37,783 nucleotides of DNA from a virus (IMGVR_UViG_3300029190_000005), one strand, 5' to 3'; shown: positions 33,514 to 35,937, counted from the stretch's first letter. The notes: generated by a model not told the origin, from the letters alone. Program-made: numbers and translations.

Positions 33514-34206
33514 TCAGAAGAACCCTGCTTTGTCGTTGATGTACTCCGCGTGCGTCTGGATATCACGCAGGCATTTGCTCACACCGACGATGTAGCAGAA
33601 CATGGTGGTCAACTCCGCCGCCGCGCCCGATACGTCGTGCCCGTCTTCCTGTAACTGGTTTAGCAGATTCATCAGCAGTGAGTTCTCCGTCAGGCCGAGA
33701 ACACCAGACGGCGAATGAATCAGGCTGCGGTAGCCGGGCTTCAGTGGGGCGCTGTAGGTTTTGTTCTCTACCTTCATTGCCTGCATCACTGCTGATGCTG
33801 TGGCGTTGGCTACCTGGTCGGCAACCATCTTTATGCGTTCTTCCTGCGGGAGCGAGTTTTTAATGTAACTTCCGGTGCGGCGGATCTGAGGAAGAACCTC
33901 ACCTGTAACCCATTCAAGAAATCTGAATGCTCTCGTTCCCTCAGTCATTGCCTCTTTGCAACGCAGAATAAGGATGTAGAGACCTGATTCTGAAACGATG
34001 GATAGTTCTTGTATTCCACCAGGGGTCTGTATTGAATACAGCCCCTTTTTGTTCCAGCCTTTTTTATCAAGTTTTCTCGCTTGTGTAACATCAATATTCA
34101 AAGCATTGCACACATCTTTGGTGACAAACCAAGGTTCTCCGTCAATCATGAACATACGGATCTGGCAGGATGACTCAAAGGAAAAGATGGAAGGTTTGGT
34201 ATTCAT
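33514..34206 (-). CDS. Antirepressor-like protein with Bro-N domain
   Basis: From ATG at 34206 (MNTKPSIFSFESSCQIRMFMIDGEPWFVTKDVCNALNI...GLYILILRCKEAMTEGTRAFRFLEWVTGEVLPQIRRTGSY) the Bro-N signature is clear; the C-terminal domain has a paralog at 35589..35846. Confidence 0.7.
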   Translation of the reverse strand: MNTKPSIFSFESSCQIRMFMIDGEPWFVTKDVCNALNIDVTQARKLDKKGWNKKGLYSIQTPGGIQELSIVSESGLYILILRCKEAMTEGTRAFRFLEWVTGEVLPQIRRTGSYIKNSLPQEERIKMVADQVANATASAVMQAMKVENKTYSAPLKPGYRSLIHSPSGVLGLTENSLLMNLLNQLQEDGHDVSGAAAELTTMFCYIVGVSKCLRDIQTHAEYINDKAGFF

Positions 34207-34393
34207 AGCGATCACCTTTGTAGTTAGGTTAATCACCACCGCTGAGACCAATCAGATGGTGGTGAACTGTGCAGAGTTGGTCTTACCGGCTACAAAGGAA
34301 CCCGGCGCACCTTTCGGTGCCCCCACACAGCCCACCATAGAATAGGTGCGCTTTACACATAAAAAAACCGCTTATGCGGCATATGTGCCTCTG

Positions 34394-34447
34394 TAGTAAT
34401 CCGGGAGACCAATCCCGGCACTGGATTTTGCCAGTGCCCGATTACTA
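34394..34447 (-). other. Compact three-stem structured element (candidate small RNA or leader)
   Basis: Outer stem TAGTAATC (34394-34401) / GATTACTA (34440-34447) encloses hairpins CCGGGA-gaccaa-TCCCGG (34401-34418) and GCACTGG-attttg-CCAGTGC (34419-34438); a weak hairpin + U-run on the minus strand lies at about 34361-34379. Confidence 0.3.
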
Positions 34448-34473
34448 TGGCACAAGAGGAGTGCAATGTAAAT

Positions 34474-34488
34474 TTACCGAAAAGGTAA
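34474..34488. promoter_or_regulatory. Operator-like palindrome TTACCGAAAAGGTAA
   Basis: Perfect site between the divergent antirepressor-side and toxin-pair-side regions. Confidence 0.55.
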
Positions 34489-34649
34489 TAATAAATGCAT
34501 AACTCACGTTATTTCAACCCTATATGGTTTGATTTATCCCATTTCAGAAAATACCTGCCTATTTTTTTGCCAGTATGCGTATACTTTCGATAGAATGTTT
34601 ACCCTAGAGGTAGTTGGGGGTGCCCGTGAACACGAAGAGAGCTACAGTA

Positions 34650-35069
34650 ATGCAGCATTTGAGGAAATCAGAAAAAAATAAAGACCATGAAATATTGAGT
34701 AAGGCCATTGTTCGGGCTTCCAATAATACTGTTATACCTCATGCTGAAGAGTCTGGACAGAAATTTCTTATTCGGTATTTCACTGAAAATAGTGCAGTTG
34801 AGGAGATTTTAAAACATCAGGGAGGGGAATTTAAATGTGGAAAACTGGCAGATTATGTTCGTCGTGAAACGTCTGAACAAGAAGTATATTATGCTGATAT
34901 TAATCATAAGTCAGGTGTGAAAATTGTAATAGGCTATTACACAACTCCCAAAAATGTTATGCATGAGGTCCCAAAGATGTCCGTCGAGAAATCTCATGCA
35001 ATCTCGCGCAGGATGTTTGCACGCACTGCCGAAGATATGGCTCAGGAGCTCTACGACGATGCTGAATAA
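34650..35069 (+). CDS. Hypothetical protein upstream of and overlapping the YafO-like gene (candidate antitoxin)
   Basis: 139 aa from ATG at 34650 (alternative TTG at 34614); AT-rich; stop overlaps the downstream start by 11 nt; candidate promoter TTGCCA-18-TAGAAT at about 34568-34596. Confidence 0.45.
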   Translation: MQHLRKSEKNKDHEILSKAIVRASNNTVIPHAEESGQKFLIRYFTENSAVEEILKHQGGEFKCGKLADYVRRETSEQEVYYADINHKSGVKIVIGYYTTPKNVMHEVPKMSVEKSHAISRRMFARTAEDMAQELYDDAE

Positions 35070-35565
35070 ATTCCAGGGGTTGGTTCACCCTGGAATTTTT
35101 GGGAAGGACCCTGAGCTAATACCTATCAAAAACGCGTTCATAGATCACTGGCGCTACGGTCATCATAAGGATTTCGGAAAGGACACTCTGTTTCGGGATC
35201 CACCGAAAGAAATGCTGGAATATCACATACGCCACGTTCACGTAAACATCGGAAACTATACTGACAAGTTTGGTGAGAGCGGTACGGAACAATGCTGGAA
35301 AAACTGGGCGTCTGGGAAGAAAGACAAGACCACTAACAAGCATAAAAAGATCCCAACCAGTGACGTGTATGTGATTTATCTGGTCACATCTGAACGCCAT
35401 GCCTTCCTTCTGGATTATTGGGATGAACCAGCACATAAGACAGTAGAAATTGACGAGCAGAAGCAAAAATTAGTTGTCGAGTGTGACAGAATTTTGCGGC
35501 TGAAAAAGTTAGAATCCATGCCGCGCGATGCTAGTTTGTGGGACCCAGAATTTTACGACTGTTAA
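35059..35565 (+). CDS. YafO-like toxin family protein (putative)
   Basis: Segments GIFGKDPEL...HIRHVHVN...SDVYVIYLVTSERHAFLLDYWDEPAHK parallel E. coli YafO motifs (DIFGRD...HIHL...HLVYCQ...AWLLIAILKPEPHK) from memory. Confidence 0.45.
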   Translation: MLNKFQGLVHPGIFGKDPELIPIKNAFIDHWRYGHHKDFGKDTLFRDPPKEMLEYHIRHVHVNIGNYTDKFGESGTEQCWKNWASGKKDKTTNKHKKIPTSDVYVIYLVTSERHAFLLDYWDEPAHKTVEIDEQKQKLVVECDRILRLKKLESMPRDASLWDPEFYDC

Positions 35566-35566
35566 T

Positions 35567-35590
35567 GGCCGCTTTCGCGGCCTTTTCTTT
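35567..35590 (+). terminator. Bidirectional rho-independent terminator (GGCCGCTTTCGCGGCC + TTTTCTTT)
   Basis: Same hairpin core as 32313-32330; sits between convergent genes. Confidence 0.55.
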
Positions 35591-35846
35591 ATGTGGTTTG
35601 TTTTCGTAATTGTTCGGCACAATAGTCGAGATGTGTTTGCAGATCCTGCATAGACATCTGTGAGCTGGTGACGTAGTTAATCAGTGCAGTCAGTTCGGCA
35701 AGTGGGCCATCGACATTAAATCCATCCTTATCGAGATCCCGGAGTAATTTCATCAAGTGCGATCCCTCCACCAGTGACCTGACGCCTCCCGGCGTGTGAA
35801 TCCTTTCGGTAAATCCGTCTTCCAGTGGATAGTGATACTGCTGCAT
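35589..35846 (-). CDS. Short antirepressor paralog (C-terminal domain only)
   Basis: 85 aa from ATG at 35846 (GGAGAA 6 nt upstream): MQQYHYPLEDGFTERIHTPGGVRSLVEGSHLMKLLRDLDKDGFNVDGPLAELTALINYV... aligns with the C-terminus of the Bro-N protein (YSAPLKPGYRSLIHSPSGVLGLTENSLLMNLLNQLQEDGHDVSGAAAELTTMFCYIV...). Confidence 0.5.
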   Translation of the reverse strand: MQQYHYPLEDGFTERIHTPGGVRSLVEGSHLMKLLRDLDKDGFNVDGPLAELTALINYVTSSQMSMQDLQTHLDYCAEQLRKQTT

Positions 35847-35867
35847 CTTATCTTCTCCATGCAATAA

Positions 35868-35883
35868 CTGTATGTTTATACAG
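35868..35883. promoter_or_regulatory. LexA (SOS) box CTGTATGTTTATACAG
   Basis: Fits CTGT-N8-ACAG; the 20-mer AACTGTATGTTTATACAGTA matches consensus TACTGTATATATATACAGTA at most positions; 22 bp upstream of the short antirepressor start. Confidence 0.65.
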
Positions 35884-35922
35884 TAACAAATAATTTGTTT
35901 GCTATCCAGCACGTTTTGCAAA

Positions 35923-35937
35923 TTACCCGAAAGGTAA
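35923..35937. promoter_or_regulatory. Operator-like palindrome TTACCCGAAAGGTAA
   Basis: Perfect site upstream of the LexA box and short antirepressor gene, and about 105 bp upstream of the tail spike start. Confidence 0.55.

What the first reader, a model, noticed from the sequence alone, without database searches (positions are those of the whole stretch)
33514..35937. Induction circuit built from a peptidase-less repressor, two antirepressor paralogs and a LexA box
The repressor (5427..6011) has two HTH-like regions and no recognisable LexA-type autocleavage domain. A Bro-N antirepressor (33514..34206) and a short paralog carrying only its C-terminal domain (35589..35846) sit in the late-region accessory island, each behind an operator-like palindrome. 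The short paralog also has a consensus LexA box (35868-35883) between promoter and start. SOS-controlled antirepressors are known in Gifsy-type, 186 and N15 phages; here the antirepressor promoters also appear to be under the phage repressor itself, which would form a feedback loop.
Basis: partly seen in the sequence, partly recalled or inferred. Interest (0 to 1): 0.7.

Follow-up and report, generated by a model that had tools for sequence, protein, structure and literature searches.

The report
Dual-input antirepressor switch of a coliphage
This part of an epsilon15/phiV10-like E. coli phage carries the already well-studied small antirepressor that the host SOS regulator LexA keeps silent, plus a second, longer copy of the same antirepressor domain that is governed by a P1-like antisense-RNA cassette instead, so the parts are known and only their combination is modestly new.

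Summary
The window is 100% identical to Escherichia phage EC.W1-9, a Uetakevirus. The short gene (35589..35846, minus) is an 88%-identical orthologue of the Salmonella phage SPC32H antirepressor Ant (PDB 5D50). The repressor (5427..6011) is homologous to SPC32H Rep and has no S24 peptidase. A 17/20 LexA box sits at 35866-35885. This Rep/Ant/LexA circuit is already described and crystallised for SPC32H, so the core is not new.

The shared C-terminal domain is the SPC32H Ant fold, not KilA-C. The long Bro-N paralog (33514..34206) has no LexA box; it lies behind an isrK sRNA plus C4 antisense RNA cassette (Rfam 75 and 79 bits). The C4 loop is complementary to the long gene's ribosome-binding site and to a site in isrK, and all three co-vary across four phage groups. 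This resembles P1 immI and Gifsy-1 isrK-anrP.

The "operator-like palindromes" are TTACC-N5-GGTAA. There are 16 copies, all in the 7.7% non-coding DNA, including the left and right early-promoter operator regions (OL and OR), and they are conserved across the genus. They are probably Rep operators. Rep feedback is plausible at the isrK promoter and doubtful at the LexA-controlled promoter.

Verdict: a modest new variant of known systems.

The parts
5427..6011 (-). Rep, the phage repressor. It has an N-terminal HTH DNA-binding domain, a middle HTH_3-like dimerisation domain and a C-terminal tetramerisation/Ant-binding domain. It has no S24 peptidase.
   Evidence: Pfam. PDB 5D50_A at E = 4e-42 over residues 1-190. 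The domain description of SPC32H Rep is taken from PMC9986798.
6067..6129 (.). OR region with three operator-type palindromes: 6067-6081 (perfect), 6084-6098 (2 mismatches) and 6115-6129 (1 mismatch). It lies between rep and the cro-like gene (6166..6396, plus).
   Evidence: SPC32H has the same layout at 34391, 34408 and about 34437.
5293..5369 (.). OL region with two perfect palindromes (5293-5307 and 5355-5369) 62 bp apart. It lies between the rep stop codon and terminator and the first gene of the leftward early operon.
   Evidence: SPC32H has three sites at the equivalent place.
33514..34206 (-). Long antirepressor (Ant-L). It is a Bro-N domain (residues 16-106) fused to an SPC32H-type Ant domain (about residues 147-228).
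   Evidence: It is 80% identical to ZX5 ORF4, and identical from about residue 107 onwards. Overexpression of ZX5 ORF4 lowered lysogen titre from 10^9 to 10^6.
34215..34223 (-). Downstream target of the C4 loop. The sequence CUACAAAGG overlaps the Shine-Dalgarno sequence of Ant-L.
   Evidence: Read from the sequence. It co-varies with the C4 loop in four specificity classes.
34255..34342 (-). C4-type antisense RNA. The loop sequence CCUUUGUAG lies at 34298-34290.
   Evidence: Rfam RF01695, 78.6 bits against a gathering score of 45. Seven stem pairs show compensatory changes.
34361..34437 (-). IsrK-type sRNA with an intrinsic terminator at 34380-34361. The upstream C4 target CUACAGAGG lies at 34396-34388.
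   Evidence: Rfam RF01394, 74.7 bits against a gathering score of 50. Terminator scan. Covariation.
34444..34517 (-). Tandem predicted promoters for isrK-C4-antL, with a Rep-type operator at 34474-34488. The upstream promoter has -35 at 34517-34512 and -10 at 34493-34488, and the operator covers its +1. The downstream promoter has -35 at 34472-34467 and an extended -10 at 34452-34444, and the operator is centred near -44.
   Evidence: Promoter scan. The hexamers and operator half-sites are conserved in 6 phages while the 5-nt spacer varies. The operator is absent from the isrK promoters of Gifsy-1 and Stx phage PA28.
34567..35582 (+). Inserted plus-strand two-gene cassette. It comprises a promoter (TTGCCA-18-TAGAAT, 34567-34596), an operator-like site (34599-34613), genes at 34626/34650..35069 and 35059..35565, and a terminator (35567-35582). 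It is probably not part of the switch.
   Evidence: It is absent from ZX5, phiV10 and TL-2011b. PGAP names the second product a YafO-family toxin. My own Pfam, NCBIfam and PADLOC searches gave no hit.
35589..35846 (-). Short antirepressor (Ant-S), the orthologue of SPC32H Ant.
   Evidence: PDB 5D50_E at E = 1.3e-47. tblastn gives 88% identity to SPC32H ant.
35866..35885 (.). LexA (SOS) box AACTGTATGTTTATACAGTA. It overlaps the predicted -10 element (TACTGT, 35885-35880) of the ant-S promoter, whose -35 element TGGATA lies at 35908-35903.
   Evidence: The box, the -35 element and the 17-bp spacing are conserved in 6 phages. LexA control of SPC32H ant is reported in the literature (Kim and Ryu 2013, as cited in PMC7380047).
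35923..35937 (.). Rep-type operator palindrome between the ant-S promoter and the tailspike gene (starts at 36042). It is centred about -57 from the predicted ant-S start.
   Evidence: The half-sites are conserved and the spacer varies, at a constant 39-bp distance from the LexA box in the window and in SPC32H.
33414..33428 (.). Rep-type operator overlapping the -10/+1 region of a predicted minus-strand promoter. That promoter serves the next operon downstream (113-aa gene at 33066..33407 and DUF2335 membrane protein at 32591..33139).

Best explanation
The window is an epsilon15/phiV10-like temperate podophage (Uetakevirus). Its lysis-lysogeny switch is the SPC32H type.

Rep is a non-cleavable tetrameric repressor. 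It holds the phage silent by binding 15-bp TTACC-N5-GGTAA operators. Induction works by titrating Rep with an antirepressor, not by RecA-stimulated cleavage. The phage carries that antirepressor domain twice, with different control on each copy.

Arm 1 is the short Ant (85 aa). LexA sits on an SOS box over the -10/+1 region of its promoter. DNA damage leads to LexA cleavage, Ant-S is made, Ant-S binds the Rep C-terminal domain, and Rep leaves the DNA. This follows SPC32H.

Arm 2 is the long Ant, a Bro-N domain fused to the Ant domain. It is the cargo of a mobile isrK-C4 RNA cassette.
- Most transcripts from the isrK promoters stop at the isrK terminator.
- Read-through transcripts yield C4 RNA. 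The C4 loop pairs with the Ant-L Shine-Dalgarno sequence and blocks translation.
- The same loop also pairs with a site in IsrK, so IsrK can act as a decoy that relieves the block.
- This copies the logic of P1 c4-icd-ant and of Gifsy-1 isrK-anrP.

In these phages a Rep-type operator has been added to the cassette. It covers +1 of the upstream promoter. Loss of Rep should therefore raise isrK-C4-antL transcription and reinforce the switch as positive feedback. In a lysogen, C4 would also block Ant-L made by a superinfecting relative, which is immI-type immunity.

What is shown here: the homologies, the RNA families, the loop-target covariation, and the enrichment, placement and conservation of the operators. 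What is inferred: Rep binding to the palindrome, the promoter assignments, the direction of the regulation, and the division of labour between the two Ants.
For: Identity of the phage:
- 100% identical to EC.W1-9 and 91-98% identical to ZX5, phiV10 and TL-2011b.

Arm 1 (short Ant, Rep and LexA):
- Ant-S matches SPC32H Ant (5D50_E) at E = 1.3e-47.
- Rep matches 5D50_A at E = 4e-42 and has no S24 peptidase.
- The published SPC32H mechanism is summarised.
- There is a single 17/20 LexA box, conserved together with a TGGATA-17-TACTGT promoter.

Arm 2 (long Ant and the RNA cassette):
- The Ant-L C-terminal domain is homologous to Ant and keeps all family-invariant residues.
- Overexpression of the ZX5 orthologue reduces lysogeny.
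- isrK and C4 are called above Rfam gathering scores here and in 5 relatives, always upstream of the long gene.
- The C4 stem covaries.
- The C4 loop, the isrK site and the RBS site co-vary in four classes.
- The IsrK mechanism and the IsrK/STnc1160 complementarity in Gifsy-1 are described.
- P1 Ant is regulated by C1 and by C4.

Operators:
- 14 exact sites against 0.16 expected, and 16 sites when one mismatch is allowed.
- All lie in the 7.7% non-coding DNA.
- They occur at OL and OR.
- The same motif occurs at orthologous places in SPC32H (11 sites), Klebsiella phage BUCT711 (12) and TL-2011b (14).
- The motif is present at the isrK promoter only in Uetakeviruses.
Against: - No binding data for Rep on this palindrome could be read. 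The primary SPC32H papers are not in the library.
- The Klebsiella relative keeps both Rep and the motif, so there is no covariation test that links protein to site.
- At the ant-S promoter the operator is centred about -57, which is not a classical repression position. It lies equally close to a conserved plus-strand element upstream of the tailspike gene.
- At the downstream isrK promoter the operator is centred near -44. Bound Rep there could activate rather than repress.
- The ZX5 experiment used plasmid overexpression only, without deletions or binding assays.
- The phiV10 copy of Ant-L is frameshifted inside the Ant domain, so this arm is dispensable in at least one viable phage.
- In TL-2011b, a third Ant-domain gene next to an Arc-like repressor gene and a sar RNA has no operator nearby.
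Confidence: 0.7

Rival explanations
1. There is no Rep feedback on the antirepressors. The palindromes near the two ant genes belong to the neighbouring divergent promoters, namely the tailspike at 36042 and the plus-strand cassette at 34626. Ant-S would be controlled by LexA alone and Ant-L by the RNAs alone.
For: - The operator at 35923 is centred about -57 from the predicted ant-S start. About 33 bp away on the plus strand lies a conserved CATATATGGTT-N5-GGTAATAGAAT block upstream of the tailspike.
- In SPC32N, one base change in the LexA box is enough for constitutive Ant (my recollection of the abstract of Kim and Ryu 2013; that paper could not be read here and one search does not state this).
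- The plus-strand cassette has its own operator at 34599 directly after a TAGAAT -10 element.
Against: - At the isrK promoters the operator abuts the -35 element of one promoter and covers +1 of another. Both promoters are conserved in 6 phages.
- That operator is absent from the same cassette in Gifsy-1 and in a Stx phage, so it was added specifically in these phages.
- ZX5, phiV10 and Tyrion keep the 34474-type operator although they lack the plus-strand cassette.
- The operator keeps a constant 39-bp distance from the LexA box.
Confidence: 0.3
2. The long Bro-N Ant does not take part in induction of its own prophage. It is an anti-immunity or cross-talk weapon, expressed from an incoming genome to inactivate the Rep of a resident related prophage. 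The resident C4 RNA is the counter-measure. This is the immI logic of P1/P7 and P22.
For: - The cassette is of the P1 immI type.
- The C4 loop and its targets fall into two classes among coliphages whose rep region is 96-99% identical at the DNA level. This mirrors P1 versus P7 (my knowledge of that system).
- TL-2011b adds a P22-type Ant (N-terminal P22_AR_N domain) with the same C-terminal domain, next to an Arc-like repressor gene and a sar RNA.
- phiV10 is viable although its Ant-L is frameshifted.
Against: - This reading is not exclusive of the best explanation.
- In Gifsy-1, the isrK-controlled AnrP does induce its own prophage.
- In the ZX5 experiment the long Ant was expressed from a plasmid in the host during phage infection. 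It lowered the number of lysogens, so it can shift the phage's own lysis-lysogeny balance.
Confidence: 0.35
3. The TTACC-N5-GGTAA palindrome is not the Rep operator. It is the site of another phage regulator, such as the Cro-like protein or a middle/late activator, or it is a promoter element.
For: - No binding data were accessible.
- Sites lie upstream of almost every transcription unit, including terS, the head genes and int. This is unusual for a lambda-like repressor.
- A second recurrent motif, ACC-N6-GGTT, accompanies many sites.
Against: - Sites are clustered as 2-3 copies exactly at the rep-cro and rep-PL intergenic regions, where the operators of a maintenance repressor must lie.
- SPC32H Rep is reported to bind palindromic sites as a tetramer. 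This fits the paired sites spaced 17, 48 and 62 bp apart.
- The motif is restricted to phages that encode this Rep.
Confidence: 0.15
4. Rep is a conventional RecA-cleavable repressor after all, and the Ant genes are accessory.
For: None found.
Against: - No S24 domain appears in Pfam, PHROG or NCBIfam searches.
- The whole length of the protein aligns with SPC32H Rep. Later papers describe SPC32H Rep as an N-terminal DNA-binding domain, a dimerisation domain and a C-terminal tetramerisation/Ant-binding domain, and that repressor is reported to be inactivated by Ant binding, not by cleavage.
Confidence: 0.03

Closest known systems
Salmonella phage SPC32H Rep-Ant-LexA switch (Kim and Ryu 2013, J Virol; Kim et al. 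2016, PNAS; PDB 5D50 and 5D4Z)
   Same: - Same genus and same gene positions, with ant just upstream of and divergent from the tailspike.
- Ant is 88% identical.
- Rep is homologous over its full length.
- The LexA box sits over the ant promoter.
- The same palindrome lies 39 bp beyond the box.
- The same operator motif occurs at OL and OR.
   Different: - SPC32H has only the short Ant. It has no Bro-N paralog and no isrK/C4 cassette.
- Rep is only about half identical.
- The asymmetric centre of the LexA box is inverted relative to SPC32H.
Phage P1/P7 immI operon (c4 antisense RNA, icd, ant1/2; C1-controlled)
   Same: - A C4-family RNA is co-transcribed upstream of an antirepressor gene.
- Its loop pairs with the ribosome-binding region downstream.
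- Specificity is set by loop-target covariation.
- An operator of the primary repressor sits at the operon promoter, so the antirepressor is under the repressor it inactivates (plus my knowledge of P1).
   Different: - No icd-like coupled ORF is present. The C4 target overlaps the ant Shine-Dalgarno sequence directly.
- An IsrK/seqA-type sRNA with its own terminator precedes C4, which is more like P4 or Gifsy-1.
- The antirepressor protein and the repressor are unrelated to P1 Ant and C1.
Gifsy-1 isrK-orf45(STnc1160)-anrP locus (Hershko-Shalev et al. 2016, PMC4825925)
   Same: - The isrK sRNA with terminator and the downstream C4-like RNA are homologous.
- The cargo is an antirepressor-like protein that triggers induction.
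- The loop is complementary to both IsrK and the cargo RBS.
   Different: - AnrP is not homologous to Ant-L.
- The orf45 equivalent is not conserved; a 25-codon ORF in the window is interrupted after 4 codons in Tyrion.
- The Gifsy-1 isrK promoter has no TTACC-N5-GGTAA operator.
LexA-controlled antirepressors of Gifsy-1/3, Fels-2, 186 (Tum) and N15 (AntC)
   Same: The logic is the same: a non-cleavable repressor is inactivated by a small protein whose gene is repressed by LexA.
   Different: The protein families are different.
P22 immI (mnt-arc-sar-ant)
   Same: - The genome position is the same, between the tail/injection genes and the tailspike.
- The sister phage TL-2011b carries an Arc-like repressor gene, a sar RNA and a P22-type Ant (N-terminal P22_AR_N domain) whose C-terminus is the same Ant domain.
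   Different: The window itself has no mnt, arc or sar. P22 c2 repressor is RecA-cleavable and its ant is not needed for SOS induction.
Mycobacteriophage L5 stoperators (my knowledge, not tested here)
   Same: Many copies of the repressor site are spread through intergenic DNA of the whole genome.
   Different: The sites here are symmetric and lie at or next to promoters. L5 sites are asymmetric and orientation-dependent.

Membership tests
SPC32H-type Rep/Ant antirepression system | A small Ant protein homologous to SPC32H Ant | tested here: met
   5D50_E at E = 1.3e-47 over residues 2-85. 88% identity by tblastn. The long paralog C-terminus also matches, at E = 9e-14.
SPC32H-type Rep/Ant antirepression system | A Rep homologue with an N-terminal DNA-binding domain plus dimerisation and tetramerisation domains and no autocleavage domain | tested here: met
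   5D50_A at E = 4e-42 over residues 1-190. No S24 domain in Pfam, PHROG or NCBIfam.
SPC32H-type Rep/Ant antirepression system | A LexA box overlapping the ant promoter | tested here: met
   A 17/20 box at 35866-35885 overlaps the predicted -10 element TACTGT and is conserved in 6 phages. This is sequence-level evidence only.
SPC32H-type Rep/Ant antirepression system | Ant physically binds Rep and releases it from DNA, and LexA binds the box | not testable with these tools
   Needs EMSA or pull-down experiments. Shown for SPC32H in the literature.
P1-type immI (C4 antisense RNA control of an antirepressor) | A C4-family RNA upstream of the antirepressor gene in the same transcript | tested here: met
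   RF01695 at 78.6 bits against a gathering score of 45, at 34255-34342 on the minus strand. Seven compensatory stem pairs.
P1-type immI (C4 antisense RNA control of an antirepressor) | The C4 loop is complementary to the translation-initiation region downstream, with covariation | tested here: met
   Loop CCUUUGUAG pairs with CUACAAAGG at the Shine-Dalgarno sequence. Four co-varying classes were found.
P1-type immI (C4 antisense RNA control of an antirepressor) | An icd-like ORF translationally coupled to ant | tested here: not met
   There is no ORF between C4 and the ant start codon. The target overlaps the ant RBS itself.
P1-type immI (C4 antisense RNA control of an antirepressor) | An operator of the primary repressor at the operon promoter | tested here: inconclusive
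   A Rep-type palindrome lies at 34474-34488, at +1 of the upstream promoter and at -44 of the downstream promoter. Binding was not tested.
Gifsy-1 isrK-orf45-anrP locus | An IsrK sRNA with its own terminator at the 5' end of the operon | tested here: met
   RF01394 at 74.7 bits against a gathering score of 50. Terminator at 34380-34361.
Gifsy-1 isrK-orf45-anrP locus | An orf45 leader peptide coupled to the antirepressor, and an AnrP homologue as cargo | tested here: not met
   AnrP and Ant-L show no similarity, E = 3.3. The leader ORF is not conserved among relatives.
Bro-N / KilA-C (ANT) antirepressors | An N-terminal Bro-N domain | tested here: met
   PF02498 at E = 1.9e-13 over residues 16-106.
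Bro-N / KilA-C (ANT) antirepressors | A C-terminal KilA-C/ANT domain | tested here: not met
   There is no Pfam hit in residues 110-230 at E <= 0.1. That region is the SPC32H Ant domain, phrog_450.

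The most novel reading that the evidence does not exclude
E. coli Uetakeviruses may run a P1/P7-like bipartite immunity in a podophage. Their rep regions are 96-99% identical at the DNA level, so they would share immC specificity. Their C4 loops and targets split into at least two classes, CCUUUGUAG in EC.W1-9 and CCUUUUAG in ZX5, phiV10 and TL-2011b. A phage of one class could then superinfect lysogens of the other, because its Ant-L would escape the resident C4. In addition, Rep may silence every transcription unit through 16 operators, and it may gate the isrK-C4-antL operon. 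SOS-made Ant-S would then ignite a Rep-dependent positive feedback through Ant-L, giving a two-stage, two-signal commitment switch built from one effector domain.
Probability: 0.3. Interest if true: 0.55.

Novelty: new variant of a known kind. Interest (0 to 1): 0.3.

Why it matters
About one in ten complete E. coli genomes carries this module (543 of 5426), including O157 and O103 strains. Knowing that these prophages are induced through antirepressors helps predict when they will be released by antibiotics or by other stresses. One antirepressor is wired to the SOS response and the other to an sRNA/antisense cassette that responds to other signals in Salmonella. This also bears on which related phages can overcome each other's immunity. 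The C4 loop-target classes and the set of 16 operators give directly testable predictions. The biology is nevertheless an assembly of modules that are each already understood (SPC32H Rep/Ant, P1 immI, Gifsy-1 IsrK), so the gain is incremental.

Tried and rejected
- Primary SPC32H papers. I tried to read J Virol 2013 (PMC3807360), PNAS 2016 (PMC4983836) and the epsilon15 genome paper (PMC2698709). None is held. The published Rep operator could therefore not be compared with the palindrome. Only secondary descriptions were used.\n- Palindrome spacing. My first search used an N6 spacer and found nothing relevant. The correct spacer is N5.\n- KilA-C/ANT assignment of the shared domain. Rejected, because there is no Pfam hit and the PDB match is to Ant.\n- Cryptic S24 peptidase in Rep. 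Rejected.\n- A second LexA box near the long gene. None exists; the nearest candidates have 11 of 20 mismatches.\n- A covariation test between Rep and the operator using a Klebsiella Uetakevirus. It was uninformative, because both the Rep type and the motif are retained.\n- Homology of Ant-L to Gifsy-1 AnrP or to a Stx-phage antirepressor behind the same RNA cassette. None found.\n- An orf45 or icd equivalent. Not conserved.\n- A defence-system or toxin assignment for the plus-strand cassette. There is no PADLOC, Pfam or NCBIfam hit, although PGAP labels one product a YafO-family toxin.\n- Assigning the recurrent ACC-N6-GGTT / CATATRTGGTT motif to sigma-70 hexamers by eye gave no convincing promoter. 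It is left unexplained.

Full report
**What the window is.** The region 33300-36100 is 100% identical to Escherichia phage EC.W1-9 (PP445227). It is 91-95% identical, apart from an insertion, to vB_EcoP_ZX5, TL-2011b and phiV10, which are temperate podophages related to Salmonella phage epsilon15; ZX5 and phiV10 are classified in the genus Uetakevirus. The immunity region 5300-6500 is 96-99% identical to the same phages. The window runs in prophage order from just upstream of int to the middle of the tailspike gene.

**Checking the observation.** All the elements exist.
- The repressor (5427..6011, minus, 194 aa) has an HTH_3 hit at residues 106-147 and a weak HTH hit at 21-61. It has no peptidase domain.
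- The long gene (33514..34206, minus) has a Bro-N domain at residues 16-106.
- The short gene (35589..35846, minus, 85 aa) aligns with residues 149-222 of the long protein at 42% identity, E = 8e-20.
- CTGTATGTTTATACAG lies at 35868-35883. Only three CTGT-N8-ACAG matches occur in the window. This is the only one with an A/T-rich centre, and it matches the 20-bp consensus at 17 of 20 positions.
- The two "operator-like palindromes" are TTACCGAAAAGGTAA (34474-34488) and TTACCCGAAAGGTAA (35923-35937).

**The core circuit is already known.**
- The short protein matches the antirepressor chain of PDB 5D50 (Salmonella phage SPC32H Ant) at E = 1.3e-47. It is 88% identical to the annotated ant genes of SPC32H and SPC32N.
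- The repressor aligns over residues 1-190 with SPC32H Rep (5D50_A, E = 4e-42).
- Papers I could read summarise the published findings. SPC32H Rep is inactivated by a LexA-controlled Ant, not by cleavage (PMC7380047, citing Kim and Ryu 2013).
- Rep binds palindromic sites as a tetramer, and tetrameric Ant binds two Rep dimers and breaks the tetramer (PMC9638917).
- Rep consists of an N-terminal DNA-binding domain, a dimerisation domain and a C-terminal tetramerisation/Ant-binding domain (PMC9986798).
The second one lies in the non-DNA-binding part of the protein.
- In SPC32H, ant has the same position and orientation, a LexA box, and the same palindrome 39 bp beyond it.

The "peptidase-less repressor plus LexA-boxed antirepressor" is therefore an orthologue of a solved system. 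The primary papers are not in the library. What I say about them rests on secondary citations and on my own recollection of the abstracts.

**The shared domain.**
- The C-terminal domain of the long protein is the Ant domain (5D50_E, E = 9e-14; phrog_450). It is not KilA-C.
- The family is small. It has 44 clusters at 50% identity among 1.84 billion representative proteins. Most are stand-alone proteins of 80-95 aa, and some are C-terminal fusions of 130-319 aa.
- Both paralogs keep the family-invariant residues.
- E. coli members of the genus have two Ant-domain genes, and TL-2011b and HEMP4 have three. The Salmonella members have one.
- The third copy in TL-2011b is a P22_AR_N domain fused to a C-terminal Ant domain whose aligned 72-residue core is identical to that of the window's long protein. 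It sits next to an Arc-like repressor gene and a sar RNA.
- The Ant domain thus behaves as a Rep-specific effector module that is plugged onto generic antirepressor N-termini.
- Functional evidence for the long form comes from ZX5 ORF4. ORF4 is 80% identical overall and identical from about residue 107 onwards. Its overexpression lowered lysogen titre from 10^9 to 10^6 while total titre was unchanged (PMC9782041).
- That paper does not mention LexA (0 occurrences in its text). In the ZX5 genome record the short paralog is annotated only as a hypothetical protein, and the isrK/C4 region carries a 37-codon CDS called "ash family protein".

- Rfam finds two RNAs above gathering score on the minus strand between the long gene and its promoter. 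One is isrK (34437..34361, 74.7 bits against a gathering score of 50), which ends in an intrinsic terminator. The other is a C4 antisense RNA (34342..34255, 78.6 bits against 45).
- The same pair precedes the long gene in ZX5, phiV10, TL-2011b, Enterobacter phage Tyrion and a Klebsiella prophage-like phage. It is absent from SPC32H and Klebsiella phage BUCT711, which lack the long gene.
- The C4 stems show seven compensatory pairs.
- The C4 loop CCUUUGUAG (34298-34290) is the exact complement of CUACAAAGG (34223-34215), which overlaps the Shine-Dalgarno sequence of the long gene. With one G-U pair it also complements CUACAGAGG (34396-34388) in the single-stranded part of IsrK. The minimum-free-energy fold of the leader pairs the loop with the IsrK site.

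The three sites change together across four classes:

| Phages | C4 loop | Site in IsrK | Site at the RBS |
|---|---|---|---|
| Window, Tyrion, Klebsiella ST512 phage | CCUUUGUAG | CUACAGAGG or CUACAAAGG | CUACAAAGG |
| ZX5, phiV10, TL-2011b | CCUUUUAG | CUAAAAGG | CUAAAAGG |
| Stx phage PA28 | UCCUUUUUC | GAAAAAGG | GAAAAAGGA |
| Gifsy-1 | CGGUGAU | UCACCG | AUCACCG |

- This is strong comparative evidence that C4 pairs with both sites. It matches the logic of P1 c4-icd-ant and P4 seqA-CI-seqC.
- It also fits the Gifsy-1 isrK-orf45-anrP locus. There, IsrK supplied in trans switches on translation of the antirepressor-like AnrP and induces the prophage. The authors noted that IsrK is complementary to the downstream processed RNA (PMC4825925).
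- The cassette occurs in 225 phage records. Its cargo proteins in Gifsy-1 and in PA28 are unrelated to the long Ant. It is therefore a mobile regulatory cassette with exchangeable antirepressor cargo.
- No icd- or orf45-like coupled ORF is conserved here.

**The palindromes.**
- TACC-N5-GGTA is the most enriched spaced palindrome in the window, with 14 sites against 0.16 expected. Allowing one mismatch to TTACC-N5-GGTAA gives 16 sites.
- All 16 lie in the 7.7% of the window that is non-coding. For the 14 exact sites, the chance of that is about 2e-16.
- Their locations are as follows:
  - three in the rep-cro intergenic region (6067, 6084 with two mismatches, and 6115);
  - two between the rep terminator and the leftward early operon (5293 and 5355);
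  - the rest upstream of int, the gene after cro, the DUF1064 gene, terS, the head operon, a minus-strand gene next to the tRNA, and four in the accessory island (33414, 34474, 34599 and 35923).
- The same motif occupies orthologous places in SPC32H (11 sites against 0.27 expected), Klebsiella phage BUCT711 (12) and TL-2011b (14).
- In alignments the half-sites are invariant while the 5-nt spacer drifts freely. This is the signature of a protein-binding site.
- Clustering at OL and OR, and pairing at 17, 48 and 62 bp, fit a tetrameric maintenance repressor.
- I therefore regard these sites as Rep operators (about 0.8). This is an inference, because no binding data were available to me.

**Is there a Rep feedback on the antirepressors?**

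At the long gene the geometry supports it. Two tandem minus-strand promoters are conserved in six phages.
- The upstream promoter (TTGAAA-18-TATTAT, 34517-34488) has a -10 element that abuts the operator, so the operator covers +1.
- The downstream promoter (TTTACA-17-TGcCATAGT, 34472-34444) would start at the IsrK 5' end, with the operator centred near -44.
- The isrK promoters of Gifsy-1 and PA28 align with the downstream promoter but lack the palindrome. The operator was therefore added specifically in phages that encode this Rep.
- The arrangement recalls P1, where Ant expression is regulated by C1 and by C4 (PMC8201110). The two P1 promoters P51a and P51b are from my own knowledge.

At the short gene the case is weaker.
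- Conservation defines a TGGATA-17-TACTGT promoter whose -10 element lies inside the LexA box.
- That places the palindrome at about -57. It is roughly as close to a conserved plus-strand block (CATATATGGTT-N5-GGTAATAGAAT) upstream of the tailspike gene.
- It may serve either promoter, or both.

**Most likely mechanism.**
- In the lysogen, Rep occupies its operators, LexA blocks the ant-S promoter, and C4 blocks Ant-L translation.
- DNA damage removes LexA. Ant-S then titrates Rep through its C-terminal domain, as in SPC32H.
- Loss of Rep opens the upstream isrK promoter. More IsrK and more read-through mRNA shift the IsrK:C4:RBS competition, Ant-L is made and the switch is locked.
- Independently, C4 from a resident prophage should block Ant-L of an incoming relative that has a matching loop.
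- The steps shown here are the homologies, the RNA families, the covariation, and the placement and conservation of the sites. All regulatory directions are inferred.

**Evidence that tempers this.**
- The phiV10 long gene is frameshifted within the Ant domain.
- The ZX5 evidence comes from overexpression only.
- Rep centred at -44 could activate rather than repress.

**Novelty.** I found no paper in the searchable library that describes the two-Ant arrangement, the RNA cassette or the operator set in this genus. Each module is nevertheless well known. I rate the finding as a new variant of a known kind, of modest interest. The module is common, occurring in 543 of 5426 complete E. coli genomes.

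Noticed in passing
window 211, 5293, 5355, 6067, 6115, 6452, 8398, 8460, 12952, 12970, 15689, 16313, 33414, 34474, 34599, 35923 (15-mers): There are sixteen TTACC-N5-GGTAA palindromes (14 exact at the TACC/GGTA core, against 0.16 expected). All lie in the 7.7% non-coding DNA, upstream of almost every transcription unit. They are conserved at orthologous places in SPC32H, TL-2011b and a Klebsiella Uetakevirus. This looks like genome-wide repressor control.
   Followed up: partly
window about 5317-5329, 6476-6487, 8441-8455, 16368-16392, 34520-34536, 35961-35988: A second recurrent motif, (A)ACC-N6-GGTT(TG) or CATATRTGGTT-N5-GGTAAT, lies 12 or about 34 bp from many of the palindromes. Upstream of the tailspike it is conserved in six phages together with GGTAATAGAAT. 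It could be an activator site or an unusual promoter. It is unexplained.
   Followed up: partly
window 34567-35582 (+): A two-gene plus-strand cassette is inserted between the two antirepressor modules. The genes are 34626/34650..35069 and 35059..35565, which overlap by 11 nt. The cassette has its own promoter, an operator-like site and a terminator. It is absent from ZX5, phiV10 and TL-2011b. A match covering at least 80% of the 2.5-kb region that includes it occurs in 41 of 5426 complete E. coli genomes. PGAP calls the second product a YafO-family toxin, but Pfam, NCBIfam and PADLOC gave no hit in my searches.
   Followed up: partly
window 15907-15983 (-): A tRNA-Arg (anticodon TCT) is present. 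The EC.W1-9 GenBank record annotates a hypothetical CDS on the opposite strand over the same bases, which is probably spurious.
   Followed up: partly
L002 (ZX5) 1779-1892; window 34353-34466 (-): The 37-codon CDS annotated in ZX5 as 'ash family protein' coincides with the isrK/C4 RNA region. It is most likely an RNA region mis-called as a protein gene.
   Followed up: partly
L008 (phiV10) 1512-2191 (-): The phiV10 copy of the long Bro-N antirepressor is frameshifted inside the Ant domain, after ...SLLMN. This arm may therefore be inactive in phiV10, or the record may contain a sequencing error.
   Followed up: partly
L005 (TL-2011b) 31060-32244 (+), sar at 31231-31298 (-): TL-2011b carries a third antirepressor next to an Arc-like repressor gene and a sar RNA. 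Its N-terminus is a P22_AR_N domain and its C-terminus is the same Ant domain as the window's long protein. No TTACC-N5-GGTAA site lies near it.
   Followed up: partly
window 35868-35883 versus L003 (SPC32H) 19958-19973: The asymmetric centre of the LexA box is the reverse complement in the two phages: CTGTATGTTTATACAG in the window and CTGTATAAACATACAG in SPC32H, both read on the plus strand. The flanks are collinear.
   Followed up: no
window 32591-33407 (-): Downstream of the long antirepressor lies a separate small operon, preceded by its own operator at 33414. It encodes a 113-aa protein of unknown function (phrog_10654) and a DUF2335 membrane protein. Function is unknown.
   Followed up: no
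window 6484-6747 (+): This ORF is the positional counterpart of SPC32H_043. It is unannotated in EC.W1-9 because the linear GenBank record is cut inside it (record end corresponds to window position 6583).
   Followed up: no
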